This document shows positions 413 through 12,917 of a DNA stretch of 12,984 bases, piece after piece. The position numbers and the translations under genes are program-made. Origin of the DNA: an uncultured Aquificales bacterium (GTDB lineage Bacteria > Thermosulfidibacterota > Thermosulfidibacteria > Thermosulfidibacterales > Thermosulfidibacteraceae); the NCBI GenBank assembly GCA_964453345.1, contig CAYVOC010000038.1, positions 1-12,984 of the forward strand, written 5' to 3'. The notes below the pieces were generated by a model. It had not been told where the DNA came from. It worked only from the letters and a program-made list of their open reading frames with translations, and made no database searches. Position 1 is the stretch's first letter. Each line of letters starts with the position of its first letter.

Positions 413-453
413 GGGCCGTGGGTCCTGGTGATCCACGGCCCTTTTTATTTTTT
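413..453 (+). terminator. Second, tandem intrinsic terminator T2
   Basis: 12-bp stem GGGCCGTGGGTC (413-424)/GATCCACGGCCC (430-441) with one G-U pair, 5-nt loop, followed by TTTTTATTTTTT (442-453). Ends immediately before the trpE SD. Confidence 0.88.
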
Positions 454-465
454 GGGAGGCGGGGA

Positions 466-1863
466 ATGGACAGGGAAAGGTTTGCAAGGCTCTGGGACGG
501 TTATGACAGGGTGCTTCTATTCAGGGAGCTTATGCTGGATCTTGCCACCGTTCCGGTGGTGCTTGCCGGGGTGAGGGGTCCCTTCTTCCTTCTTGAAAGC
601 GCCAATACGAAGAAGGAGTTTTCCAGATACACCTATTTGGGGTTTCCCGACGCCATGTTTTCCTTAGAGGATGAGGACCCCTTCTTTTTTGTTGAGGAGA
701 TGGTTAAGGGCAGTGCCCCCAAGGTTGCGGAGCTCGGCGATTTTTCCGGCGGAGCGGTCTTTCTTCTGGGGTATGGGGCCTCCAACTACACGGGGCTTTT
801 GAGGAGGCCCGTGAGGACGGGGGAGGACCTTGCCCTGGTGATGCAGGTTAACAGATTCGTTGTGCTGGACAACTACACCCAGAAGATCTTCGGGTGCGTC
901 GTCAAGGAGAGGGGGCTTAGCTGGCAGCAGGATTATGCGGAGGCCTCCGACATTCTGGACGGGCTTGAGGCGGATTTGAGGTCGGTTCTTAGGAGGGGAC
1001 TGAGGGAGGGGCTGTCCTCTGTGAGGCATGATCTCAAGGGGCTTTTCTGGGAGATGGAGAGGGAGGCCTTTGAGGAGACGGTGGCGCAGGTTAAGGGGAT
1101 GATCGCCGATGGGGAGGCCATACAGGTGGTTTTGAGCCAGAAGCTTGAGGCTTATGGTGCGCTGGATCCTGTGGGCTTCTACAGGTATCTGAGGAAGCTG
1201 AACCCCTCCCCCTACATGTTCTTTTTGCGGGGAGATGGGGTCGTTTACTGCGGCTCCTCCCCCGAGGTGCACCTGAAGGTGATGGGGGGCAAGGCGCTCA
1301 TGAAGCCCATCGCCGGCACCTATCCCGTGGGGGAGGATCTGGACGCCATTATAGAGGCTCTGAAATCCGACGAGAAGGAGCGGGCCGAGCATCTGATGCT
1401 GGTGGATCTTGCGAGGAACGATCTTTACACCCACTGCACCCCTGAAAGCGTGGAGGTTCCCGTCTTTATGGAGGCGGAGGTTTACTCCCATGTGGTCCAT
1501 CTGGTCTCCACGGTGGTGGGAAGACTCTCCGAGGGCATCCATCCCGTTGAGCTTCTAAGGATGACCTTCCCCGCGGGCACGGTGAGCGGCGCCCCGAAGG
1601 TGAGGGCCATGGAGATCATAGACGAGCTTGAGAGATCCCCCAGGGACTTTTACGCGGGGTGCGTGGGCTACTACAGCTACAACGGCAATCTGGATACATG
1701 CATCACCATAAGGTCGGCCAGGTTTGCGGGAGAGGTGTGCACTCTGAGGGCGGGAGCGGGGATAGTCTATGACAGCGTCCCCTCCCGGGAGTTTGAGGAG
1801 GTGCGCAACAAGCTCATGGCCCTGAGCGTTGCCTTGAAGAAGCTTTCCGCCATGGAGGTGTGA
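466..1863 (+). CDS. trpE: Anthranilate synthase component I
   Basis: Motifs LLES (Trp feedback site), NPSPYM, GSSPE, PIAGT (Ala, as in TrpE, rather than the PabB PIKGT), EKERAEHLMLVDLARND, FPAGTVSGAPKVRAMEII, AGAGIV. Start moved from 418 (inside T2) to ATG 466, which follows GGGAGG at 454-459. Confidence 0.95.
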   Translation: MDRERFARLWDGYDRVLLFRELMLDLATVPVVLAGVRGPFFLLESANTKKEFSRYTYLGFPDAMFSLEDEDPFFFVEEMVKGSAPKVAELGDFSGGAVFLLGYGASNYTGLLRRPVRTGEDLALVMQVNRFVVLDNYTQKIFGCVVKERGLSWQQDYAEASDILDGLEADLRSVLRRGLREGLSSVRHDLKGLFWEMEREAFEETVAQVKGMIADGEAIQVVLSQKLEAYGALDPVGFYRYLRKLNPSPYMFFLRGDGVVYCGSSPEVHLKVMGGKALMKPIAGTYPVGEDLDAIIEALKSDEKERAEHLMLVDLARNDLYTHCTPESVEVPVFMEAEVYSHVVHLVSTVVGRLSEGIHPVELLRMTFPAGTVSGAPKVRAMEIIDELERSPRDFYAGCVGYYSYNGNLDTCITIRSARFAGEVCTLRAGAGIVYDSVPSREFEEVRNKLMALSVALKKLSAMEV

Positions 1864-1865
1864 GG

Positions 1866-2441
1866 GTGATTCTGCTTGTGGATAACTACGATTCCTTCAC
1901 CTACAACCTCTACGCCCTCTTCAGGCTGGCGGGGGCGGAGGTGAAGGTGATAAGGGAGAACGAGCCTGTTCCGGAGGCCGATTTTAAGGGGATGATCCTT
2001 TCCCCCGGTCCCTCAAGGCCTGAGAACATGCCCGGTGCCTGCGAGAAGCTTGAGAGGGTGCTGGGGAAGGTGCCGGTTTTCGGGGTCTGTTTGGGGATGC
2101 AGATTATAGCCCATCTTCTGGGACACGAGGTTTCGAGGGCGAAAACCATCCAGCACGGCAAGGAGGACAGGATCCTGAAAAGGGGTGATTCCGTGATTCT
2201 TGCAGGTGTTCCCGACGGCTTCAGGGTGGTGAGGTATCATTCTTTGAGCGTGAAGCTGAAGGGCGACAACCTCGTTCCCGTTGCCTACTCCCAAAAGGAC
2301 GGGGAGCTAATGGCCTTTGAGAACAGAAGACTTAGGGTTTTCGGGGTGCAGTTTCACCCTGAGTCCATCCTCTCTGAATACGGCGATAGAATCGCAAAAA
2401 ACTTCTTAGAGGTGTGCTATGGTGCTGAGGAAGGTTCTTAA
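1866..2441 (+). CDS. trpG: Anthranilate synthase component II (class I glutamine amidotransferase)
   Basis: DNYDSFTYNL, LSPGPSRP, GVCLGMQ (catalytic Cys), RYHSL, GVQFHPES (His/Glu). GTG 1866 preferred because of GGAGGTG at 1854-1860; GTG 1860 is the alternative. Confidence 0.94.
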   Translation: MILLVDNYDSFTYNLYALFRLAGAEVKVIRENEPVPEADFKGMILSPGPSRPENMPGACEKLERVLGKVPVFGVCLGMQIIAHLLGHEVSRAKTIQHGKEDRILKRGDSVILAGVPDGFRVVRYHSLSVKLKGDNLVPVAYSQKDGELMAFENRRLRVFGVQFHPESILSEYGDRIAKNFLEVCYGAEEGS

Positions 2442-3411
2442 GGGGGAAAGGCTCTCCTTTGAGGAGGCCGTGGAGCTTTTCTCCGGTATTTTTGACGGGA
2501 AGCTGTCCGAGGTGCAGACGGCGGCGGTCCTTTCCGTCATGGCGGTGCGGGGCGAGTCCCCTGAGGAGCTTGCGGCTGCGGTGGAGTGCGCTCAGAAGCG
2601 CAAGGTGAGGGTGGAGGTGGATCTGCCGAGGCTGGTTGACACCTGCGGGACTGGCGGGGATGGTAGGGGCACCTTCAATGTCTCCACGGCTTCGGCTCTG
2701 GTGGTGAGGTCCCTGGGGATTCCCGTGGCCAAGCACGGAAACAGGGCGGTTACGGGCAGTGTGGGTTCTGCGGATGTGGTTCAGATGCTGGGGCTTCCCG
2801 TTGCGGAGGATGCGGATTCCGCCAGGGCCATGCTTGAGGAAAGGGGCTTCGCCTTTCTTTTCGCCCCGAAGTTTCATCCCGCTTTTGCCAGGGTTGCGCC
2901 GGTGAGGCGTCAGCTTCCCGTTCCCACGGTGTTCAATCTTGTGGGACCCCTTATCAATCCCTGCCCGCTGACGGCCCAGCTTGTGGGGGTCTATTCTCCC
3001 GAAAAGGCTGAGGTTGTGGCCCGGGCTCTGGCACTTCTTGGAAGGAGCAATGTGGTGGTCGTCTGTGGTGAGGATGGGATAGACGAGGTGGACACCAAGG
3101 GCGCAACCCTCATCTTTGAGGTGGAGGATGGCAGGGTAAAAGGCTGGAGGTTTGAGGCGAAAAAGATTGTGGGAAGGGAGTTTGAGATACCGAGGGTGAG
3201 CAGCCCCGATGAGGCGAAGGAGACCCTCATGGGCGCTGTTTCCGGTGAGTTTGAGGAGGCGTCTGTTGCAGCGGCTATTAATGCCGCCTTTGTTCTTTAC
3301 GCCCAGGGGATCTGCGATGTTTCAGAAGGCTTTGGAAGGGCCATGGAGGCCATAAAGGAGGGCGCCGTTGTCAAGACCCTTGAGGAGCTGAGGGATGGGG
3401 TTTCTGGATGA
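2419..3411 (+). CDS. trpD: Anthranilate phosphoribosyltransferase
   Basis: DTCGTGGDG, FNVST, KHGNR, GSADV, FHPA, TVFNLVGPLINP, GIDE. GAGGTG SD upstream; overlaps trpG by 23 nt. Confidence 0.96.
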   Translation: MVLRKVLKGERLSFEEAVELFSGIFDGKLSEVQTAAVLSVMAVRGESPEELAAAVECAQKRKVRVEVDLPRLVDTCGTGGDGRGTFNVSTASALVVRSLGIPVAKHGNRAVTGSVGSADVVQMLGLPVAEDADSARAMLEERGFAFLFAPKFHPAFARVAPVRRQLPVPTVFNLVGPLINPCPLTAQLVGVYSPEKAEVVARALALLGRSNVVVVCGEDGIDEVDTKGATLIFEVEDGRVKGWRFEAKKIVGREFEIPRVSSPDEAKETLMGAVSGEFEEASVAAAINAAFVLYAQGICDVSEGFGRAMEAIKEGAVVKTLEELRDGVSG

Positions 3412-4168
3412 GATGAGGTCTTTGAAGGAAGGGGAGGTGCAGGGCCTGGATCCCGCCTCCTTCGGGGAAAGGGAAAGGGGCGTATACAATCCTCTGAGGT
3501 TTTTGAGGGAGGCGCCCGTTATAGCGGAGGTCAAGCCCGCATCGCCCACGGCGGGAAGGATAAGGGACGTTGACCCCGTAAGGCAGGCCATTGCCTACCA
3601 GAGGGGCGGGGCGGGCGCCGTGAGTGTCCTCGTGGATGAAAGTTACTTCGGGGGAAGCTGGCATAATCTTAGGAGTGTTGCACATGGCGTTAACCTCCCC
3701 GTTTTGTGCAAGGAGTTTATCCTTTCGGAGAAGCAGATAGACGCCGCCTACAGGTGCGGGGCGGATTTTGTTCTTCTGATATACGGGTTTGTGGAGGAGG
3801 GCAGATTATCCGAGCTTGCGGCCTTTGCGAAGGAGAAGGGGCTTTTTGTGCTTCTTGAGGTCTTTGATCCTGAGCAGCTTGATGGGGCGTTGGAGCTTGA
3901 TTTCTGGGATATGCTGGGCGTCAACAGCAGGAATCTTCAGGACCTGACGGTGGATCTGGGAAGGGCAGCTGGTATGCTTTCCCGCATTCCGGAGGGCGTC
4001 TTCAAGGTGGGGGAAAGCGGAGTTAGAAGCCTTGAGGACGCAAGGTTTCTGTTTGATGCGGGCGCCGATGCTCTGCTTGTGGGGGAGTTTCTCATGAGGC
4101 AGGATAATCCAGAGGTTGTGCTTAGGGAGCTTGTCCATGTTCGTGAAGATATGCGGCATCAGGGATGA
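3395..4168 (+). CDS. trpC: Indole-3-glycerol phosphate synthase
   Basis: IAEVKPASPTAG, AVSVL, LPVLCKEFI, GAD, LLEV, GVNSRNL, ESG, LLVGEFLM. Overlaps trpD by 17 nt. Confidence 0.95.
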   Translation: MGFLDEMRSLKEGEVQGLDPASFGERERGVYNPLRFLREAPVIAEVKPASPTAGRIRDVDPVRQAIAYQRGGAGAVSVLVDESYFGGSWHNLRSVAHGVNLPVLCKEFILSEKQIDAAYRCGADFVLLIYGFVEEGRLSELAAFAKEKGLFVLLEVFDPEQLDGALELDFWDMLGVNSRNLQDLTVDLGRAAGMLSRIPEGVFKVGESGVRSLEDARFLFDAGADALLVGEFLMRQDNPEVVLRELVHVREDMRHQG

Positions 4169-4688
4169 AAGGACCGCCCTTGTTGCGGCGGAGGCCGGTG
4201 CGGATGCCATAGGCTTCGTTTTTCACAAGAATAGCCCCAGGTTCGTGGAGTATAGGGTGGCTGAGAAGATAGCAGAGAGACTGTCCGGCAGGGTTCTTAT
4301 CGTGGCGGTTTACAAGAGGAGGGATGAGATTGACGGAGGGGTTCTCGATTTCTGCGATCTTGTTCAGGTCTATGAGCCTGTGGAGGAGCTGAGGGACAGG
4401 CTCATTCTCGGTGTGTCCGGCTACACCCGTGAGCCTGCGGCATACTATCTTCTTGATGTGAGCCACGGCAGGGGCAGGTTCTTTGAGCATCCGCAGGATC
4501 TATACGGGCTTCCAAAGGAGAGGGTCATACTCAGCGGGGGGCTGAATCCCGAAAATGTGGCGGAGGTTGTGGAAAGATACTCCCCCTTCGGGGTGGATGT
4601 CTCAAGCGGGGTGGAAAGCTCCCCCGGGGTGAAGGACGAAAGACTCATAAGGGAGTTTATCAAAAGGGCCAAGGGGGAAGTCGGATGA
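4137..4688 (+). CDS. trpF: Phosphoribosylanthranilate isomerase (compact, 183 aa)
   Basis: VKICGI (catalytic Cys), [15 protein letters not shown] (catalytic Asp), [27 protein letters not shown] 4137 follows GGGAG and overlaps trpC by 32 nt. Confidence 0.94.
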
Positions 4689-5842
4689 GGAAGGGTTTTT
4701 ACGGCGAATACGGGGGCAGGTTCGTGCCGGAGACTTTGATTCCCGCCCTTGATGAGCTGGAGGAGGCCTTTGAGGCCTTCAAGAAGGATAAAGAAGCGGT
4801 GGAGAGGTTCGAGGGGCTTCTTAAGAGCTATGCGGGAAGGCCCACTCCTGTAACCTATGCGGCGAGGTTCTCTGAAAAATACGGCTTTGATCTGTATCTC
4901 AAGCGGGAGGACCTTCTCCACACCGGCGCCCACAAGATAAACAACACCTTAGGGCAGGCGGTGCTTACGCAGTTCATGGGAAAAAGCAGGATCATCGCCG
5001 AAACCGGCGCCGGTCAGCACGGGGTCGCAACCGCCACGGCCTGCGCCCTTTTGGGCCTTGAGTGTGTGATATACATGGGGGCGGTGGATGCGGAAAGGCA
5101 AAGGATGAATGTTGAGCGCATGAGGCTTCTGGGGGCAGAGGTCAGGGTGGTGGAGGAGGGAAGCGCCACCCTGAAGGATGCCATAAACGCCGCCCTGAAG
5201 GACTGGGTGACCAACGTCAGAACCACCCACTACATGCTGGGGTCCGTTGTTGGTCCCCACCCCTTCCCTGAGATGGTTGCCTACTTCCAGAGCGTCATAG
5301 GAAAAGAGGCGAGGCGGCAGTGCGAAGAGATGGGCTTTCTTCCCGATGCCGTTGTTGCATGCGTTGGAGGTGGAAGCAACGCCATAGGGATCTTCAGGGG
5401 CTTTCTGGATGCCGATTGCGAGCTTATAGGGGTGGAGGCGGGCGGCACCTCAGACGATCCGGGCTGCCATGCAAGGACTTTGGGTCTGGGAAGGCCGGGG
5501 ATTCTGCACGGCGCCTACAGCTACCTGCTCTACGGCGAGGATGGGCAGGTGCTTCCCGTTCACTCGGTCTCCGCGGGGCTTGATTATCCCGGGGTGGGAC
5601 CGGAGCACAGTTTTCTTAAGGATTCCAAGCGGGTGAGATACGAGTTCTGCAGGGACCGGGATGCCTTGGCCGCCTTCAGGGAGCTTTCGAGGCTTGAGGG
5701 GATTCTCCCCGCCCTTGAGAGCGCCCATGCGGTGGGCTTTGTGATGAAAAACAGCGCCGAGTTCAGGGGCAAGAGGGTGCTTCTGAACCTGTCGGGAAGG
5801 GGAGATAAGGATCTGGGAATAGTTCTGGGGGTTGAGGGATGA
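4685..5842 (+). CDS. trpB: Tryptophan synthase beta chain (TrpB1 type)
   Basis: [15 protein letters not shown] (PLP lysine), [44 protein letters not shown] overlap with trpF. Confidence 0.98.
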
Positions 5843-6558
5843 AGGGGCTTTACCTTGTCTTCGGGTATCCGGATGTTGAGGCCTTTGACAGGGCGGTTGC
5901 CCTTGCGGAAGGAAGCGGCTTTGACTTCCTGGAGGTGGGCGTTCCCTTCAGCGAGCCTGTTGCCGACGGACCCTACCTGAGCGCCGCATCCAAAAGGGCC
6001 ATAGAGAGGGGAGTGACCCTTGAAAACGCCCTTGAGTGGATCGCCTCATACAAAGGCGGCTTGAAGATCTATGTGATGACCTACGCCAACATCCTTCTGG
6101 CCCGCGGCCTGGAGCGGGTCTCTCGGGAGATGAGGGATGCGGGGGTGAGGGGGGTTATCGTTGCCGATCTTCCCAACAGGGAGCAGTGGTTCTTCAGGGA
6201 GCGGGGATTTGAGCTTCCCATCATTCCCTTTGCCACCCCCGAGAGCCGCCGCCAGGACATTGAGATGATAGCGGATCTTGATGCGGACTTTGTCTATTTC
6301 GTTTCTGTTAGGGGGACAACCGGCTCCGGCTTCAGACTGGAGAGGGAGGTGGTGGAGAAGATAGGCTTTTTGCGCGAGATCTGCAAAAAGCCCGTGGTTC
6401 TGGGGTTCGGAATCTCGGAGCCGGAGCATGTGAGGGCTGCCCTGAAGGTGGCGGACGGCTTTGTGATAGGCACCCGCGCCGTCAGGGAGCTGGACAGGGG
6501 ACTGGACTTCTTCGAATCTTGGTGCAACTCGTTGACAATGTGTTTTAAAGCTGTCTAA
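5839..6558 (+). CDS. trpA: Tryptophan synthase alpha chain (short, 239 aa)
   Basis: [19 protein letters not shown] (catalytic Glu and Asp), [34 protein letters not shown] overlap with trpB. Confidence 0.95.
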
Positions 6559-6561
6559 GGT
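6532..6561 (+). promoter_or_regulatory. Putative sigma70 promoter for aspC-leu-cdsA, embedded in the 3' end of trpA
   Basis: Perfect TTGACA at 6532-6537, 18-nt spacer, TAAGGT at 6556-6561 (includes the trpA stop codon), in a locally AT-rich stretch about 40 nt upstream of the aspC start. Confidence 0.6.
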
Positions 6562-6587
6562 AGGCTTGTAAAAATTATAACAAGCCT
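6562..6587. promoter_or_regulatory. Palindromic candidate operator AGGCTTGT-N10-ACAAGCCT
   Basis: Perfect 8-bp inverted repeat (6562-6569/6580-6587) with AT-only spacer AAAAATTATA, between the putative -10 and the aspC SD GGAGGT (6588-6593). No U-tract follows it. Confidence 0.5.
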
Positions 6588-6599
6588 GGAGGTAGGATC

Positions 6600-7805
6600 A
6601 TGCAGGTAAAGCTTGCAAAAAGAACAGCGCTAATCAAGCCCTCGCCCACCTTGGCCATAACCGCCAAGGCCAAGGCCATGAAGGCTGAAGGCATCGATGT
6701 GGTGGGGTTTGGTGCAGGAGAGCCCGACTTTGACACCCCCGAAAACATAAAGGAGGCTGCCATAAGGGCAATAAAGGAGGGCTTCACCAAATACACCGCC
6801 GTCCCCGGAATAGACGAGCTGAAGGACGCCATAATAGAGAAGTATAGGGCAGAGCAGGGGCTCAGCTATGAGCGCTCCGAGGTGATTGTTTCCTGCGGTG
6901 CCAAGCACACCCTCTACAACATCGCCATGGTCCTGTTTGAGGAGGGGGACGAGGTGATAATACCTGCCCCCTACTGGGTCACCTATCCGGATCAGGCGGT
7001 TCTTTGCGGTGCAAAGCCCGTCTTCATCTACACTAAGGAGGAGAACGAGTTCAAGGTGCTTCCCGAACAGCTGGAGGAGGCCATAACCGACAGGACCAAG
7101 GCCATAATCCTCAACTACCCCTCCAACCCCACCGGTGCCACCTACACCAAGGAGGAGCTGGAAAGATTAGCCGAGGTGATACTGAAGAAGAACCCCAACA
7201 TGTGGATCATATCCGATGAGGTTTACGAGAAGATCATCTACGACGGCAGAAGGCATGTCTCCATCGCCACCATCTCCGACGAGGTGAAGGCCAGAACCCT
7301 TGTGGTGAACGCCGTATCCAAGACCTACTCCATGACCGGATGGCGCATAGGCTGGATGTGCGGAAACAGAGAGGTTGTGGCTGCCATGAGCAAGATACAG
7401 AGCCAGTCCACATCCAATCCCACATCCATCGCCCAGAAGGCCGCCGTTGAGGCCCTCACCGGTCCCCAGGATGCGGTTGAAGAGATGAGGAAGGCCTTTG
7501 AGGAGAGGAGGAACTACATAGTGGAGCGCCTCAACTCCATGCCCGGCGTCTCCTGCTTCAAGCCCCACGGTGCCTTCTATGTTTTCCCCAACTTCTCCGG
7601 CGTTTACGGCAAATCCTACAAGGGCAAGAAGATAGAGAACTCCATGGACTTTGCGGCCTATCTGCTTGAGGAGTATAAGGTGGCCATTGTTCCCGGTGCG
7701 GCCTTCGGGGATGACAACTGCGCCAGGTTGTCCTACGCCACATCAATGGATAACATAAAGAAGGGGCTTGATAGGATAGAGGAAGCCATAAAGAATCTGG
7801 AGTAG
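6600..7805 (+). CDS. aspC: PLP-dependent class I (subgroup I-beta) aspartate aminotransferase, possibly also prephenate aminotransferase
   Basis: GAGEPDFDTP, TKYT, CGAKH, PYWVTY, NYPSNPTG, SDEVY, SKTYSMTGWRIG (PLP lysine), GAFYVF, VPGAAFG, RLSYA. SD GGAGGT upstream. Confidence 0.9.
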   Translation: MQVKLAKRTALIKPSPTLAITAKAKAMKAEGIDVVGFGAGEPDFDTPENIKEAAIRAIKEGFTKYTAVPGIDELKDAIIEKYRAEQGLSYERSEVIVSCGAKHTLYNIAMVLFEEGDEVIIPAPYWVTYPDQAVLCGAKPVFIYTKEENEFKVLPEQLEEAITDRTKAIILNYPSNPTGATYTKEELERLAEVILKKNPNMWIISDEVYEKIIYDGRRHVSIATISDEVKARTLVVNAVSKTYSMTGWRIGWMCGNREVVAAMSKIQSQSTSNPTSIAQKAAVEALTGPQDAVEEMRKAFEERRNYIVERLNSMPGVSCFKPHGAFYVFPNFSGVYGKSYKGKKIENSMDFAAYLLEEYKVAIVPGAAFGDDNCARLSYATSMDNIKKGLDRIEEAIKNLE

Positions 7806-7809
7806 GGGT

Positions 7810-9291
7810 ATGGAGAAGGTCTTTATACTTGACACAACCCTGAGGGACGGGGTGCAGTCGCCCCTTGTTACCCTCACACCCCACGAGAGGCTTGAGCTGG
7901 CAAGGGCTCTGGCGGATCTGGGGGTGGATGTCATAGACTGCGGCTATCCCGCCATGGGCAAAGAGGAAGAGGAGACGGTGAGGCTGGTGGCCTCCGAGGT
8001 GGAGGGGCCCGTCCTTTCGGTGCTGGCTAAGTCCGTGTCTGAAGTTGAGCAGGCGGTGAAGCTGCTTGAGGGGACCAAGGGCAGAATACACATTCCCGTT
8101 CCCACCTCCGAGATAAGGCTCGCCTTTGTGGCCGGTAAAGACAGAAAGCAGCAGCTTGCGGAGGCCATCCAGGGAGTAAGAATCGCCAAGGAGGCGGGCC
8201 TTGAGGTGGAGCTGACCCTTGAGGACGCCTTCAGGGCGGATGAAGGGTATCTCATGGAGGCCTTTGAAGCCGCCTTGGAGGGGCGGGTGGATGTGATCAA
8301 TCTTTCGGACACCGTGGGCGTTGCCACCCCCTCCATGGTGAGGGAGCTTGTGGGAAAGATGGCTTCCAAGGCGGGCGGCGCCCTTTTGAGCATACACTGC
8401 CACGATGACCTCGGCATGGCCACCGCCAACAGCTTCGCCGCCGTTGAGGCGGGTGCCCGGCAGGTGCATCTGACCTTAGCCGGTGTGGGAACAAGGGCGG
8501 GCAATGCGGCCCTTGAGGAGTTTGTGGTTGCCCTTGAGCTGCACAGGGAAAGGCTCGGACTGTATAGCGATGTGAGGCTCGAAAGGCTCTACAGAACGGT
8601 CAGGCTCTTTTCCAAGCTTGCCGGATACTTCATCCCGCCCCACAAGGCGGTGGTGGGCGATGCGGTGTATGTCCACAAGGTTGACTACATGAGGATAGCC
8701 GTGGTGAGGGAACCCAGAACCTACCAGATAATAGACCCCGAAAGGGTGGGGTATCCCAAGCAGCAGATCACCCTCTCCAAGCGCTCCGGCAAATACATGT
8801 TCAGGAGCAAGGTGGAGGAGCTGGGATACAGGTTGACCGACGAGCAGCTGGAGGAGGCCTTCAGGCGCTTCAAGGAGCTTGCCGCAAGAAAGTCAGAGAT
8901 ATACGAGGCGGACATCATCGCCATAGTGGAGGATGTGCTCCTTTCCACCGAAGAGAGGGTGAGCCTTGTCTCCTACTCGGTTAAGACGGGAACGGAGATA
9001 GGGGTTGAGGCGACGGTCAGGTTGAGGATAGATGGCTCCGAGGTTGAAAGCAGCGCCACAGGGGATGGCCCCGTTGATGCCGCCTTCAGGGCCATAGACG
9101 AGGCGGTGGGGCTGACCGGAAGGCTCCTTGACTACAGAGTCTCCTCTGTCAGCTTCGGCAAGGACGCCCTTGGGGAGGTCTTCATAAGGGTGCTCTTCAA
9201 GGGCAAGGAGTTCACAGGGCGTGCCATCGGCACCGATATTCTTCAGGCGAGCATAGAGGCCTACATAAACGCCGTAAACAAAGCGCTTTGA
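7810..9291 (+). CDS. leuA: Divergent 2-isopropylmalate synthase-family (DRE-TIM) protein with LeuA C-terminal regulatory domain; activity uncertain
   Basis: [34 protein letters not shown]-terminal [24 protein letters not shown]; directly upstream of leuCDB. Several family motifs are altered (see findings), so the gene symbol reflects homology only. Confidence 0.7.
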
Positions 9292-9304
9292 TCGGAGGAT
9301 GCGC

Positions 9305-10564
9305 ATGGGAATGACCATTGCCGAGAAGATCCTGGCCGCCAAGTGCGGCAAAGACGCCGTGAAACCGGGAGAGCTTATAATGGCGAGGGTTGACATTGCC
9401 CTTGCCAACGATGTGACGGCACCCCTTGCCATAAAGGCCTTTGAGGAGGTGGGGGCAAGGGAGGTCTTTGACAGAGACAGAATCGCCCTTGTGCCCGATC
9501 ACTTCACCCCAAATAAGGACATAAAGGCCGCCGAGCAGGCGAAGATCGTTCGGGAGTTTGCCAGAAGGCACAACATAACCCACTACTTCGAGGTGGGAAG
9601 GGTTGGCATAGAGCATGCCCTTCTGCCGGAGCAGGGGATTGTGGTTCCGGGGGATCTGGTGATAGGCGCAGACTCCCACACCTGCACCTACGGGGCGCTG
9701 GGAGCCTTTGCAACGGGCGTCGGCTCCACGGATTTAGGATGCGCCATGGCAACGGGTGAGATATGGCTTAAAGTCCCGCCCACCGTGAGGTTCGAGATAA
9801 GGGGCAAAAAGAACCGCTATGTCACCGGCAAGGACATAATCCTGCACATAATAGGCATGATAGGGGTGGACGGTGCTCGCTACAAGGCCATGGAGTTCGC
9901 AGGCCCCGTGATAAGGGAGCTTTCCATGGACGAGAGATTCACCATCTGCAACATGGCCATAGAGGCGGGCGGCAAAACGGGGCTGATAGAGCCCGATGAT
10001 GTAACAAGGTCCTACGTTGAGGGGCGTGCCAAAAGGGAACCCGTTTACTACGCTTCCGATCCCGATGCCGAATACGAGAAGGTGTATGAGGTTGACATAA
10101 GCGACCTTGAGCCTGTGGTTGCCCTGCCCCACCTTCCCGAGAATGTGAAGCCCGTGAGGGAGGTCAACAACATACCCATAGATCAGGTGGTCATAGGTTC
10201 CTGCACCAACGGGAGAATCACTGATCTGAGACAGGCGGCTGAAATTTTGAAAGGCAGAAGGGTTCACCCAAATGTTCGTCTCATCATTATCCCCGCCACC
10301 CAGGCCATCTGGGAGCAGGCCATGAAGGAGGGGCTTTTCGAAATATTCCTTGAGGCGGGAGCCGCCATATCCTGCCCCACCTGCGGGCCCTGTCTCGGCG
10401 GGCACATGGGGGTCCTTGCCGAGGGAGAGAGGGCGGTCGCCACCACCAACAGAAACTTCGTGGGCAGGATGGGCCATCCGAAAAGCGAGGTCTATCTTGC
10501 AAGCCCCTATGTTGCGGCGGCCTCCGCTGTTGCAGGAAGAATAGCCCATCCCGACGAGCTTTAG
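9305..10564 (+). CDS. leuC: 3-isopropylmalate dehydratase large subunit (short type-2 LeuC/HacA family)
   Basis: [42 protein letters not shown] (Fe-S cysteines), [14 protein letters not shown] 9305 chosen because GGAGG (9294-9298) lies 6 nt upstream. Confidence 0.95.
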
Positions 10565-10574
10565 GAGGAAGAGG

Positions 10575-11078
10575 ATGCAGATAAAGGGAAGAGCCTTCAA
10601 GTTCGGGGACCACATAGACACCGATGTCATAATCCCTGCAAGGTATCTCAACACCTCCGATCCTAAGGAGCTTGCCGCCCACTGCATGGAGGATGCGGAT
10701 CCTGAGTTTGTCAAAAAGGTGAAGCCCGGGGACATCATCGTTGCAGGGGAAAACTTCGGCTGTGGCAGCTCAAGGGAGCACGCTCCCATAGCCATAAAGT
10801 ATGCAGGGGTATCCTGTGTTATAGCCAAAAGCTTCGCAAGGATCTTTTACAGAAACGCCATAAACACGGGGCTTCCCATCATAGAGGCCCCTGATGCTGT
10901 GGACAGAATAGACGAGGGAGACGAGCTGGAGGTGAGCCTCAAGGACGGGATTATAAAGAACCTTACCAAAAACGAAACCTACTCCTTTGAGCCGCTTCCT
11001 GAGTTTATGATGAAGCTTCTCACCTTGGGGGGACTCATCCCCTTCGTGAGGGAAAGACTCAAAGCTAAGGGGGCTTGA
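10575..11078 (+). CDS. leuD: 3-isopropylmalate dehydratase small subunit (type 2)
   Basis: [54 protein letters not shown] upstream. Confidence 0.95.
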
Positions 11079-11079
11079 A

Positions 11080-12162
11080 ATGGCTTACAGGGTGGCTGTT
11101 CTTCCCGGAGACGGGATAGGTCCCGAGGTGATGGATGAGGCGCTCAGGGTCCTTGATGCTGTATCTAAAAAGTTCGGCGTGGAGTTTGAGTATAAAGAGG
11201 CTCTCATAGGCGGCGCCGCCATAGACGCCAAGGGGGACGCCTTCCCCGACGAGACCAAGGAGATTTGCGACTGGGCGGATGCAATCCTTTTCGGCGCCGT
11301 TGGCGGTCCCAAGTGGGAGAGCCTTCCTCCGGAGAAGCAGCCGGAAAGGGCTGCCCTTCTGCCCATAAGAAAAAGATACGAGCTTTTCGCCAATCTCAGA
11401 CCCGCCATAGTCTTTCCGGCCCTGATAGAGTCTTCCCCTCTCAAGAGGGAGATACTGGGGGAAAAGGGTTTTGATGTTCTTGTGGTGAGGGAACTGACGG
11501 GCGGCATATACTTCGGCCAGCCCAAGGGCATCTTTGAAGAAAACGGCCGCAAAAAGGGAATTGACACCCTCGTTTACTACGACTGGGAGATAGAGCGCAT
11601 AGCAAAGGTCGCCTTTGATGCGGCGATGAAGCGCAAAAGGAGGGTCGCCTCCATAGACAAGGCGAATGTCCTCACCTCCATGGTTCTGTGGCGCCAGGTG
11701 GTGGAGGAGGTTGCCAGGGACTACCCCGATGTGGAGCTGAGGCACCTTTACGTGGACAACGCCGCCATGCAGCTCATAAGGGATCCCCACCAGTTTGACG
11801 TGATACTTGCCGGCAACATGTTCGGGGACATCCTTTCCGATGAGGCCGCCATGCTCACGGGATCCATAGGGATGCTGCCGTCTGCAAGCCTCGGGGAAAA
11901 CAAGGGCCTGTATGAGCCGGTGCACGGCTCTGCCCCCGACATAGCGGGACAGGGCATAGCCAACCCCTGCGCCATGATACTGTCTGCTGCCATGATGCTC
12001 AGATACTCCTTCAACCTGCTTGACGCTGCAGATGCGGTGGAGAAGGCCGTTGAGCAGGTTCTGAACGAGGGCTTCAGAACAGCCGATCTCTACAGGGGCA
12101 GGCAAGGGGAGAAGAAGGTGGGAACCAGCGAGATGGGTAAACTTATAGCCGAAAGGATATGA
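11080..12162 (+). CDS. leuB: 3-isopropylmalate dehydrogenase
   Basis: [74 protein letters not shown]. Confidence 0.97.
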
Positions 12163-12917
12163 GTCCTGAGCTAAAGAAGCGCTGGATAACGGCTATAGTT
12201 GCCATAGCGGTTGTGGCCTTTTCCCTTTTCAGCAGGGCTTCTGTCTATCTTTATCTGCTCTGCCTCTTTGTGGGGCTTGTGGGTGTCTGGGAGGCGGGAA
12301 GGCTCCTTGCCCTCAGCGTGGACGATGTGGTGGTTGCCTCGGTCTCCCTTGCCTTAGGCCTTCTTTCTGGAACGGCTCCAAAGTTTCCTCTTTTCGCCGT
12401 TGCCATCTTTTTGCCCCTCTTCTACCAGGCCCTGAAGCTCTGGACCGACAGGGAGATAAGACTCGATGCGGTGTTCCCGGTCATATACCTTGCCGCTCCC
12501 CTATCCGTTGCCCTTTACGCAAAAAGCCTCCACATGGAGTGGCTGCTTGTGGCGGCAGCGGTTTCCGTCTGGGCGGGGGATGCGGCTGCTTACTTTGTGG
12601 GAAAAGCAGTAGGGAAAAGGAAGCTGCATCCTGTAAGTCCCAAAAAGACAGTGGAGGGCGCCATAGGCGGCCTTTTGATAGGCGGGATTCTGTCGGCGAT
12701 CACGGCTCTACTGTTTTTGAAGTGGGGCTTTTTAAAGGCTGTCGGCTTCGGGTTTGCCACAAACATTGCGGGGCAGATGGGCGATCTTTTTGAGTCTTAT
12801 CTGAAAAGAAAGGCCGGGGTCAAGGATTCCGGCACCCTCTTTCCCGGCCACGGCGGCGCCTTGGACCGCATAGACAGTTTGCTTTTTGCGCTGATGGTGG
12901 CGGATTTGTTTATTTGA
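12159..12917 (+). CDS. cdsA: Phosphatidate cytidylyltransferase (CDP-diacylglycerol synthase)
   Basis: Multiple hydrophobic segments; [53 protein letters not shown] overlap with leuB. Confidence 0.95.

What the first reader, a model, noticed from the sequence alone, without database searches (positions are those of the whole stretch)
7810..9291. LeuA homolog with eroded signature motifs: pseudo-enzyme, regulatory subunit or altered-specificity synthase
Seen, versus the bacterial isopropylmalate synthase consensus recalled from memory: RDGEQ to RDGVQ (7843-7857), IEAGFP to IDCGYP, RIHTF to RIHIP, NIPDT to NLSDT, VECTINGIGERAGN to [14 protein letters not shown] (8464-8505), AFAHESGIHQDG to [12 protein letters not shown] (8665-8700), LGKHSG to LSKRSG. 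Retained: the DRE Arg/Asp, the HxH metal ligands, the Glu of xED, DTVG, the downstream Tyr (YQI), and a well-conserved C-terminal leucine-binding domain. The ORF is full length with normal codon usage, and the flanking leuCDB are canonical. Established: the HESGIH segment contributes a His to the partner subunit's active site and is conserved across IPMS, citramalate and homocitrate synthases. Inference: a selected non-canonical function, such as an inactive leucine-sensing partner of a LeuA/CimA encoded elsewhere, one half of a heterodimer, or a synthase for a different acyl-CoA or 2-oxoacid.
Basis: partly seen in the sequence, partly recalled or inferred. Interest (0 to 1): 0.75.

Follow-up and report, generated by a model that had tools for sequence, protein, structure and literature searches.

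The report
Remodelled LeuA paralog in leu operon
This gene is a fast-evolving but long-conserved extra copy of the first leucine-pathway enzyme that has swapped out its usual catalytic histidine, in a hydrothermal-vent bacterium that also keeps a normal copy, so it most likely does a modified or auxiliary job rather than being broken.

Summary
Through alignment to PDB 6E1J, the proposed general-base His maps to Met294.

It is not the only synthase. The genome also has a canonical LeuA, a CimA, and one LeuCD/LeuB set.

It is not decaying. It belongs to a sharply bounded clade confined to the Thermosulfidibacter lineage. The gene is intact in 17 of 18 genomes of the phylum and lies between an aminotransferase gene and leuCD in 8 of 8 loci examined. 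dN/dS is about 0.12-0.2 (dS saturated). It evolves 3-5 times faster than LeuA or CimA, and one genome has deleted it.

Metal, 2-oxoacid and regulatory-domain residues are invariant. The cap loop and part of the substrate pocket carry fixed new residues: GER to GTR, Gly to Glu/Asp292, Ser to Thr136, Glu to His220. His to Met, with Ile to Tyr next to it, is specific to this family.

Best reading (0.5): a still-catalytic, remodelled auxiliary synthase. Rivals: a regulatory pseudo-enzyme or heterodimer partner (0.25), or a redundant copy drifting towards loss (0.2).

The scan earlier noted a different dead LeuA paralog on other DNA (e1-2658621).

The parts
7810..9291 (+). leuA' : divergent LeuA-family paralog, 493 aa (P0001)
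   Evidence: ORF and translation; Pfam HMGL-like + HCS_D2 + LeuA_dimer; below all NCBIfam LeuA cut-offs
7799..7802 (+). GGAG ribosome-binding-like site 7 nt before the ATG; the stop of the upstream aminotransferase gene is at 7803-7805
   Evidence: sequence read directly
7843..7857 (+). RDGVQ: R12 (= BjMAMS Arg89), D13 (metal ligand, Asp90), V15 (canonical Glu), Q16 (Gln93)
   Evidence: alignment to 6E1J; roles from PMC11532901 passages; R12, D13 and Q16 invariant in 17 of 17 genomes
8083..8097 (+). RIHIP (canonical RIHTF); H94 is the pocket His (Nme H99)
8209..8235 (+). [12 protein letters not shown]134 (IPMS-type Glu), T136 (canonical Ser, fixed Thr in the clade), E138 (= Glu227; Gly in family f3)
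8299..8319 (+). NLSDTVG: N164 pocket Asn, S166 (canonical Pro), T168 (= Thr257, 2-oxoacid contact)
8395..8409 (+). HCHDD metal-binding motif (H196, H198 = His288, His290)
   Evidence: among the most conserved windows of the clade
8464..8505 (+). [15 protein letters not shown]220 (canonical Glu), T228 (canonical Glu of GER), R229 and N232 retained
   Evidence: exactly 25 of 123 retrieved proteins have GTRAGN
8638..8646 (+). PHK (canonical PNK): H278 fixed in the clade, K279 invariant in both groups
8665..8700 (+). Cap loop [12 protein letters not shown] (canonical AFAHESGIHQDG): H289 kept, D292 (Glu in 36 of 37 clade rows; Gly in 107 of 107 canonical), Y293, M294 (= general-base His388), R295, I296 (canonical Asp/His), A297
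8722..8724 (+). Y305 = BjMAMS Tyr399, which stacks on the catalytic His; Phe or Val/Ile in other genera
8896..9288 (+). C-terminal LeuA allosteric/dimerisation domain (363-493) with GDGPVDA and GKDALGE motifs shared with canonical LeuA
   Evidence: Pfam PF08502, E 2.6e-36; invariant columns; entropy 0.49-0.62
6600..7805 (+). class I aminotransferase, conserved upstream neighbour
   Evidence: Pfam and NCBIfam; adjacent in 8 of 8 loci, and also in G006
9299..10564 (+). leuC, the only LeuC in the genome
   Evidence: TIGR02083 720.8 > 610.65; own-genome scan
10575..11078 (+). leuD
   Evidence: TIGR02084 263 > 245.85
11080..12162 (+). leuB, the only PF00180 member in the genome
   Evidence: TIGR00169 528.8 > 353.2

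Best explanation
leuA' encodes a still-catalytic third member of the LeuA family. It is an auxiliary 2-oxoacid:acetyl-CoA condensing enzyme, co-transcribed with the genome's only LeuCD/LeuB, which it feeds. It sits alongside a housekeeping LeuA and a CimA encoded elsewhere. Shown: the barrel keeps every residue that binds the metal and the 2-oxoacid, and the leucine-type regulatory domain is kept. The substrate pocket and the trans-acting cap loop are remodelled with residues that are fixed across the clade. Inferred: in the clade ancestor the cap was re-wired (Glu of GER lost from the barrel, an acidic residue gained at 292 in the cap). That made the classical Glu-Tyr-His arrangement less critical, so it could erode differently in each family. 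In this family His became Met, with a neighbouring Ile to Tyr change and mostly an Arg at 295. The acetyl-CoA methyl would then be deprotonated by Glu/Asp292 or by a Tyr293/Arg295 pair. The enzyme probably has different kinetics, regulation or 2-oxoacid preference from LeuA, still for a small aliphatic 2-oxoacid. It is useful but not essential.
For: (1) Purifying selection over the depth of a phylum. The frame is intact in 17 of 18 genomes across 3 families and 7 genera. NG86 dN/dS is 0.12-0.20 against congeners, with dS saturated. Of the 40 shown out of 74 strain variants in vent metagenomes, the gene has 4 synonymous and 0 nonsynonymous.
(2) Synteny. The order aminotransferase, leuA', leuC, leuD holds in 8 of 8 loci from all three families. 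Gaps to neighbours are 4 and 7 nt, a GGAG lies upstream, and terminator-like sites are not clearly above shuffles (12 found against a mean of 7.3, sd 2.7).
(3) Ligand-site residues are invariant in 17 of 17 genomes: R12, D13, Q16, L72, H94, E134, N164, T168, H196, H198, R229, N232, K279. In BjMAMS2A the Arg89, Gln93 and Thr257 equivalents are needed for activity (passages of PMC11532901). The windows 194-207 and 222-240 are the most conserved in the clade, as conserved as in canonical LeuA across bacteria (entropy 0.27 vs 0.32).
(4) The cap is changed but not free to drift: H289, acid 292, A297, V298 and V299 are fixed. There are 11 positions with complete clade/canonical segregation.
(5) Tyr293 co-occurs with Met294 in 20 of 20 clade rows and 9 of 9 f1 genomes.
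(6) Family f2 keeps Glu and His, with Phe at the Tyr site. Phe also occurs there in 6 of 107 canonical LeuA rows. So the clade did not start as a dead enzyme.
(7) Pocket. Three of the 5 IPMS pocket residues are identical (L72, H94, N164), with Ser to Thr136 and Pro to Ser166 fixed. In the five-position selection table of PMC12961565 the clade reads L/E/T/N/H, that is IPMS at three positions and HCS-like at two.
(8) The AF2 fold is intact (pLDDT 86.7, pTM 0.84).
Against: The Met294 column is the proposed general base. In BjMAMS2A, H388A, H388Q, H388D and H388E had no detectable activity and H388N lost 25-35-fold in kcat (PMC11532901). PMC7826400 reports that His to Ala or Asn abolishes LiCMS activity and that a Gln to Glu change at the next residue inactivates an apple CMS allele. 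Here that next residue is Arg.
The proposed replacement bases are inference only. I had no coordinates, so I could not measure distances from residues 292, 293 or 295 to the substrates.
The protein evolves 3-5 times faster than LeuA or CimA in the same genomes, in all three domains.
One genome (G006) has deleted the gene and kept canonical LeuA.
No high-quality genome has it as its only LeuA.
There are no biochemical, transcript or protein data. The identities of the CoA-contacting residues could not be checked because the papers are not held.
Confidence: 0.5

Rival explanations
1. Regulatory pseudo-enzyme or obligate heterodimer partner. LeuA' no longer catalyses the condensation by itself. 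It binds metal, 2-oxoacid and leucine and acts as a sensor. Alternatively it pairs with canonical LeuA or CimA, whose cap donates the His in trans to the LeuA' barrel, giving a one-site heterodimer with altered feedback control.
For: The general-base His is Met in 9 of 9 genomes of this family. Family f3 has instead lost the Glu227 and Tyr399 equivalents (Gly and Val/Ile), so the classical triad is not under consistent selection in the clade. Mutagenesis shows these residues matter. A canonical LeuA-type gene is present in 11 of the 11 genomes that are at least 90% complete and carry the paralog. Constraint is relaxed in all domains. The regulatory-domain motifs are kept. From memory, not from any call: yeast Leu4/Leu9 IPMS paralogs form hetero-oligomers with changed leucine sensitivity. 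An unchecked earlier scan note describes another dead LeuA paralog elsewhere.
Against: Residues needed for chemistry and not merely for binding (R12, Q16, N232, R229) are invariant in 17 of 17 genomes. Family f2 keeps Glu and His. Barrel changes (E220H, E228T) and cap changes (N278H, G292E, G297A, L299V) are fixed together in the same protein. This is what one expects if its own cap closes over its own type of barrel, but that is an inference, because contacts were not measured. There is no evidence for any partner. G006 lost the gene without visible change to its LeuA.
Confidence: 0.25
2. A redundant second isopropylmalate synthase with tolerated or weakened activity. It drifts under relaxed selection because the stand-alone canonical LeuA carries the flux, and it is slowly heading for loss.
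For: dN against a congener is 0.22, compared with 0.06 for LeuA and 0.04 for CimA. Identity is 71/50/45% against 92/75/73% for LeuA. Canonical LeuA exceeds its equivalog cut-offs (819.3 vs 532) and is highly conserved. In G006 the paralog is reduced to an 82-codon remnant between the aminotransferase gene and leuC. The pocket is largely IPMS-like. A family f2 member, P0013, still passes one LeuA equivalog cut-off (576.2 vs 532).
Against: The 1.5-kb gene is retained intact in 17 of 18 genomes of 1.2-2.0 Mb across three families. dN/dS is well below 1. There are 11 fixed signature positions and a conserved new cap constellation, not random erosion. Strain variants are 4 synonymous and 0 nonsynonymous. 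Synteny is conserved.
Confidence: 0.2
3. A member of another characterised branch of the family: homocitrate synthase, Re-citrate synthase or citramalate synthase.
For: T136 and H220 are the residues that PMC12961565 Table 1 lists for HCS. His at position 220 also occurs in the genome's CimA.
Against: E134 stands where HCS has the Arg. NCBIfam scores for NifV, LysS and CimA models are far below their cut-offs (270 vs 463; 243 vs 414; 174 vs 450). In the 99.9% complete genome DapF is present and LysW absent, so lysine comes from the DAP route. A Si-type citrate synthase is present. A bona fide CimA is present (878.3 vs 450). The protein has a LeuA-type regulatory domain.
Confidence: 0.03

Closest known systems
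Bacterial 2-isopropylmalate synthase LeuA (TIGR00973 / NF002086; Neisseria meningitidis IPMS, PDB 3RMJ)
   Same: Same three-part architecture. Best family match. 41% identity to the genome's own LeuA. Metal ligands, Arg, Gln, Thr and 3 of 5 pocket residues are the same, and so is the regulatory domain. It sits in an operon with leuCDB.
   Different: Below all equivalog cut-offs. There are 11 fixed differences, including GER to GTR, QVE to QxH and Gly to Glu/Asp292. The general-base His is Met in this family. It evolves 3-5 times faster. It forms its own split in the tree (support 0.99), separate from the phylum's canonical LeuA.
Brassica juncea methylthioalkylmalate synthase (PDB 6E1J; mechanism in PMC11532901)
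   Same: Best solved-structure match (E 8e-69). Used for residue mapping. Shares PHK in place of PNK.
   Different: MAMS keeps His388, Glu227, Tyr399 and GER, and lacks the regulatory domain. MAMS enlarged its pocket. The substitutions here are conservative (Ser to Thr, Pro to Ser).
Paralogous IPMS isozymes: Leptospira LeuA2 (NF042434); yeast Leu4/Leu9 hetero-oligomers (recalled, not from any call)
   Same: More than one IPMS-type enzyme in one organism, with possibly different feedback control.
   Different: The score against the LeuA2 model is only 162 vs a cut-off of 500. I did not check whether those isozymes keep the catalytic His.
Citramalate synthase CimA (TIGR00977) and homocitrate synthases (TIGR02660, TIGR02146; PDB 6KTQ)
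   Same: Same superfamily and cap-in-trans design. His at position 220 and Thr at 136 resemble HCS.
   Different: Scores are far below their cut-offs. The HCS Arg is missing (E134). The genome already has a CimA and uses the DAP route for lysine.
Earlier scan note e1-2658621: catalytically dead LeuA paralog paired with an acyl-CoA ligase (another genome; AI note, unchecked)
   Same: A LeuA paralog with altered catalytic residues and a preserved allosteric domain.
   Different: By that note's own words it lost the metal-binding residues as well and has a ligase partner. Here the metal and 2-oxoacid residues are invariant and the partners are leuCDB.

Membership tests
Bacterial 2-isopropylmalate synthase (LeuA) | Architecture: HMGL-like TIM barrel + accessory subdomains + LeuA allosteric domain | tested here: met
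   PF00682 at 4-264, PF22617 at 281-361, PF08502 at 363-493
Bacterial 2-isopropylmalate synthase (LeuA) | Score above a curated NCBIfam equivalog cut-off | tested here: not met
   NF002086 488.9 < 532; TIGR00973 458.4 < 598.7; all others lower. The genome's P0002 scores 819.3 and 775.7. Family f2 member P0013 passes NF002086 (576.2).
Bacterial 2-isopropylmalate synthase (LeuA) | Metal ligands (Asp of RD, HxH) and the enolate-stabilising Arg | tested here: met
   R12, D13, H196, H198 are aligned to Arg89, Asp90, His288, His290 of 6E1J and are invariant in 17 of 17 genomes
Bacterial 2-isopropylmalate synthase (LeuA) | General-base His supplied by subdomain I (BjMAMS His388, Mtu His379) | tested here: not met
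   Met294. His in 107 of 107 canonical rows. Met in 9 of 9 f1 genomes and His in 8 of 8 f2 and f3 genomes.
Bacterial 2-isopropylmalate synthase (LeuA) | Glu and Tyr that position the His (Glu227, Tyr399) | tested here: met
   E138 and Y305 are present in this protein. They are not conserved across the clade: Gly and Val/Ile in f3, Phe in f2 and in genus g2.
Bacterial 2-isopropylmalate synthase (LeuA) | GxGERxGN motif | tested here: not met
   GVGTRAGN. Thr in 25 of 25 clade proteins and Glu in 98 of 98 others.
Bacterial 2-isopropylmalate synthase (LeuA) | IPMS 2-oxoisovalerate pocket Leu/His/Ser/Asn/Pro (Nme L75, H99, S141, N169, P171) | tested here: inconclusive
   L72, H94 and N164 are identical; T136 and S166 differ (mapping; residue list from PMC8490860)
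Bacterial 2-isopropylmalate synthase (LeuA) | Condensation of 2-oxoisovalerate with acetyl-CoA, inhibited by leucine | not testable with these tools
   Needs an enzyme assay
Homocitrate synthase | Arg that binds the distal carboxylate; no LeuA regulatory domain; a lysine (AAA) or nif context | tested here: not met
   E134 stands at the Arg position. PF08502 is present. LysW is absent and DapF present. Scores are below the cut-offs.
Citramalate synthase (TIGR00977 type) | Score above the equivalog cut-off | tested here: not met
   174.3 < 450. The genome's P0003 scores 878.3.
Pseudo-enzyme (catalytically dead paralog kept for binding or regulation) | Loss of essential catalytic residues while the fold is kept under selection | tested here: inconclusive
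   The general base is lost in this family, and the fold and selection are kept. But all other catalytic and binding residues are invariant and sister families keep the His. Absence of activity cannot be tested here.

The most novel reading that the evidence does not exclude
LeuA' is a catalytically silent subunit on its own. It keeps a metal/2-oxoacid site and a leucine site. It works either as a sensor or as one half of a heterodimer with the housekeeping LeuA or CimA, whose cap supplies the missing His in trans. That would make it a LeuA-derived regulatory pseudo-enzyme built into the leuCDB operon of a whole bacterial phylum.
Probability: 0.2. Interest if true: 0.75.

Novelty: new variant of a known kind. 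Interest (0 to 1): 0.55.

Why it matters
Public records name all members of this clade '2-isopropylmalate synthase'. Yet the protein fails the curated cut-offs, lacks the residue that mutagenesis identifies as the general base, and coexists with a true LeuA. If it is active, it would be a natural case of a DRE-TIM Claisen-condensing enzyme working without the classical His. That bears on the still-debated mechanism of IPMS, MAMS, CMS and HCS, and on how catalytic residues can be replaced. If it is inactive, it would be a regulatory pseudo-enzyme derived from the first enzyme of the leucine pathway. Either way it affects metabolic reconstructions of Thermosulfidibacterota, a lineage used as a model for ancient carbon metabolism. 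A cultured relative (T. takaii) makes it testable.

Tried and rejected
1. Homocitrate synthase, Re-citrate synthase and CimA roles were rejected from model scores, the missing HCS Arg, DapF present and LysW absent, and the presence of a Si-citrate synthase and a true CimA.
2. The low AF2 confidence of the cap loop (283-299, pLDDT below 50) is not a sign of paralog-specific disorder. The canonical LeuA, folded with the same 32 alignment rows, shows the same dip at 306-322.
3. Expression: no RNA holder is listed for the stretch, so nothing can be said.
4. CoA-contact residues: the structure papers (Plant Cell 2019, PNAS 2004, Biochemistry 2014, JBC 2010) are not held. Equating the five invariant basic residues (R12, R92, R142, R229, K279) with the 'four arginines and a lysine' mentioned in PMC11532901 remains a guess.
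5. Complex prediction was not run. A homo- or heterodimer of LeuA paralogs would be expected to pass through likeness to solved dimers, and only one job was allowed, so it could not tell the two models apart.
6. Fold search was not run. The sequence match to solved IPMS/MAMS (E 1e-68) already fixes the fold.
7. The class I aminotransferase as the only route to leucine was rejected. A class IV aminotransferase exists elsewhere in the genome.
8. dS is saturated for all available inter-genome pairs (pS 0.58-0.88), so the dN/dS values are rough. The strain-variant count is small and only 40 of 74 variants were shown.
9. Rooting of the FastTree tree on CimA did not behave, so I use only the unrooted splits.
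Full report
WHAT IS THERE. The window is a tight same-strand array: trpEGDCFBA (418-6558), a class I aminotransferase gene (6600-7805), the gene in question (7810-9291), leuC (9299-10564), leuD (10575-11078), leuB (11080-12162) and a cdsA-like gene. The ORF gives 493 residues without stops. It has the full LeuA architecture: HMGL-like barrel 4-264, HCS_D2 281-361 and LeuA_dimer 363-493. LeuC, LeuD and LeuB exceed their NCBIfam equivalog cut-offs. The ORF stays below every LeuA cut-off, with a best of 488.9 against 532. A GGAG lies 7 nt before the ATG. The gaps to the neighbouring genes are 4 and 7 nt. Terminator-like sites are not clearly above shuffles, with 12 found against a mean of 7.3 (sd 2.7). 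Codon usage matches the neighbours (RSCU r = 0.96).

All the listed substitutions are present at the stated coordinates. I mapped residues through the HMMER alignment to PDB 6E1J, whose numbering agrees with the mechanistic paper PMC11532901 (passages read).

| BjMAMS (6E1J) | This protein |
|---|---|
| Arg89 | R12 |
| Asp90 | D13 |
| Gln93 | Q16 |
| Glu227 | E138 |
| Thr257 | T168 |
| His288 / His290 | H196 / H198 |
| Tyr399 | Y305 |
| His388 (proposed general base) | M294 |

In that paper H388A, H388Q, H388D and H388E had no detectable activity and H388N lost 25-35-fold in kcat. PMC7826400 (passage) reports that the equivalent His to Ala or Asn change abolishes LiCMS activity, and that a Gln to Glu change at the next residue inactivates an apple CMS allele. 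In 107 canonical LeuA rows this His, the Gly two residues before it, and the Glu of GER are each present in 107 of 107.

IT IS A THIRD PARALOG. The genome (1.5 Mb, 99.9% complete) holds three HMGL-like synthases.
- P0002 on contig C8 has all canonical motifs and scores 819.3 against 532 for LeuA.
- P0003 on C15 scores 878.3 against 450 for citramalate synthase.
- Both are stand-alone genes among unrelated neighbours: mur genes and glyQ for P0002, gyrA and rnhB for P0003.
- There is one LeuC and one PF00180 dehydrogenase, both in this window. All three synthases must therefore share them.

IT BELONGS TO A BOUNDED, LINEAGE-RESTRICTED CLADE. The closest named relative is Thermosulfidibacter takaii at 70% identity (taxonomy). 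Of the 123 proteins in hand, exactly 25 carry GTRAGN together with the other derived motifs, and 98 carry GER. A profile of 24 clade members was searched against 1.84 billion representatives. It gave two clade representatives (826.9 and 767.1 bits) and then dropped to 557.1. None of the other 148 listed hits has the Thr228 plus acid-292 signature. In a FastTree of 150 rows the clade forms one split (37 of 37 rows, support 0.99). The phylum's canonical LeuAs form another split (support 0.999, with one metagenomic sequence inside). The paralog is therefore not a recent in-phylum copy of that LeuA. The 37 clade rows are 27 distinct sequences. Where public records give these proteins a name, it is '2-isopropylmalate synthase'.

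CONSERVATION AND RATE. Across the 18 genomes held for the phylum (3 families, 7 genera):
- The paralog is intact in 17 genomes, at 44-71% identity. In G014 it is split over two contig ends.
- A canonical-type LeuA (38-42% identity) is present in 16. The two without it are 71% and 73% complete.
- A CimA-type hit passes E 1e-30 in 10.

The order aminotransferase, leuA', leuC, leuD holds in 8 of 8 loci fetched from all three families.

| Identity to the window's genome | Same genus | Other genera / family f2 | Family f3 |
|---|---|---|---|
| Paralog | 71% | ~50% | ~45% |
| Canonical LeuA | 92% | ~75% | ~73% |
| CimA | 94% | ~80% | 74% |

The acceleration is similar in the barrel, the accessory region and the regulatory domain. 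NG86 against a congener gives dN 0.22 for the paralog, 0.06 for LeuA and 0.04 for CimA. dN/dS is about 0.12-0.20, compared with 0.03-0.04. dS is saturated, so these ratios are rough. Strains in vent metagenomes from several studies give, among the 40 shown of 74 variants, 4 synonymous and 0 nonsynonymous changes in the paralog. The neighbours give AT 8/2, leuC 5/1, leuD 2/0 and leuB 18/0. A 99%-identical metagenomic protein differs at three non-motif residues.

ONE NATURAL LOSS. G006 (family f2, 92% complete) gave no paralog hit. Its N-free contig carries only an 82-codon remnant between the aminotransferase gene and leuC. The remnant matches residues 1-78 at 55% identity and has the clade's fixed Tyr46 changed to Cys. 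G006 keeps a canonical LeuA. The gene is therefore dispensable in at least one lineage, provided the assembly is correct.

WHAT IS CONSERVED AND WHAT IS NOT. Invariant in 17 of 17 genomes: R12, D13, Q16, L72, H94, E134, T136, N164, T168, H196, H198, H220, T228, R229, N232, H278, K279, H289, an acid at 292, and A297. The metal/2-oxoacid segments are the most conserved windows of the protein and are as conserved as in canonical LeuA across bacteria. The classical Glu-Tyr-His arrangement varies by lineage.

| Lineage | Glu227 position | Tyr399 position | His388 position |
|---|---|---|---|
| Family f1 (this one) | Glu | Tyr or Phe | Met |
| Family f2 | Glu | Phe | His |
| Family f3 | Gly | Val or Ile | His |

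Met294 always comes with Tyr293, in 20 of 20 clade rows and 9 of 9 f1 genomes. Eleven positions separate the clade from the 107 canonical rows completely: E43D, F46Y, D78E, A98P, S136T, E220H, E228T, N278H, G292E, G297A and L299V. The cap loop has entropy 0.86, which is more variable than in canonical LeuA (0.37) but less than the clade mean (1.23). It holds fixed new residues. Two cautions apply. Some otherwise canonical LeuAs have Met at the Glu227 position, and Phe occurs at the Tyr position in 6 of 107 canonical rows. Those two changes are therefore not necessarily inactivating.

SUBSTRATE POCKET. The IPMS pocket residues named in PMC8490860 (Nme L75, H99, S141, N169, P171; passages) map to L72, H94, T136, N164 and S166. 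Table 1 of PMC12961565 lists five selection positions as Leu/Glu/Ser/Asn/Glu for IPMS and His/Arg/Thr/Ser/His for HCS. By alignment the clade reads L72/E134/T136/N164/H220. This mapping is mine: it rests on the alignments and on residue spacing. The pocket is mostly IPMS-like, has two fixed HCS-like residues, and lacks the HCS Arg. Lysine comes from the DAP route (DapF present, LysW absent). A Si-citrate synthase and a class IV aminotransferase are present. Homocitrate and Re-citrate roles are therefore not called for.

STRUCTURE. The AF2 model is confident (pLDDT 86.7, pTM 0.84) except in the cap loop 283-299. The canonical LeuA control shows the same dip. It is therefore a generic feature of folding a monomer whose cap segment works in trans on the partner subunit. 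The literature supports that arrangement: domain-swapped dimer in PMC9860122, adjacent-monomer CoA site in PMC8468904, and His292* of TtHCS in PMC8276798.

INTERPRETATION. Decay is excluded, and so is 'the only leuA'. Three readings remain.
- A remodelled but active auxiliary synthase (0.5). The residues needed for chemistry in the barrel are invariant, the cap carries a new fixed constellation, and the sister family f2 still has a near-canonical triad. The replacement base (Glu/Asp292, or Tyr293 with Arg295) is inference.
- A regulatory pseudo-enzyme or heterodimer partner (0.25).
- A redundant copy under relaxed selection (0.2).

I could not discriminate further without coordinates or assays. 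An earlier scan note (e1-2658621, unchecked) describes a different LeuA paralog elsewhere that lost its metal ligands as well. It shows only that LeuA-derived non-enzymes have been proposed before.

Noticed in passing
window 418-12917: Thirteen genes on one strand with gaps of at most 41 nt or small overlaps: trpEGDCFBA, aminotransferase, leuA', leuCDB and a cdsA-like gene. The trp genes adjoin the module only in family f1 loci (L019, L021, L024). The aminotransferase-leuA'-leuCD core is in all 8 loci.
   Followed up: partly
own genome G000: LeuB is the only PF00180 (isocitrate/isopropylmalate dehydrogenase) match in a 99.9% complete genome of a lineage known for a reversible TCA cycle. An isocitrate dehydrogenase of this family is therefore not seen, and another type may be used.
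   Followed up: no
proteins P0150, P0153, P0156, P0162, P0170, P0173, P0180, P0211, P0221, P0222, P0248, P0254, P0258: Thirteen of 148 other LeuA-like cluster representatives also show a non-His residue in the general-base column in a quick MAFFT alignment (not checked one by one). Loss of this His in LeuA paralogs may be recurrent in nature.
   Followed up: no
proteins P0068, P0087, P0099, P0119, P0123: Otherwise canonical LeuA proteins (GER and the His both present) carry Met at the Glu227-equivalent position (SPMD in place of SAED/SPED). One of them is labelled Candidatus Poribacteria.
   Followed up: no
L046 2768-3052 (- strand), genome G006: An 82-codon remnant of the paralog sits between the aminotransferase gene and leuC. 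This is a clean deletion of about 420 codons that leaves the leuC start and its upstream GGGAGAAG intact.
   Followed up: yes
window 9390-9575 (inside leuC): In two vent metagenome runs the summed contig depth over this 186-nt bin is 242 and 273, against about 15 and 5 alongside. High-depth contigs also join 9411 to 9515. These are probably conserved aconitase-family sequence from other, more abundant organisms.
   Followed up: no
window 4116-4168: The listed trpF ORF (TTG start at 4116) overlaps the end of trpC by 53 nt. The true start may lie further downstream.
   Followed up: no
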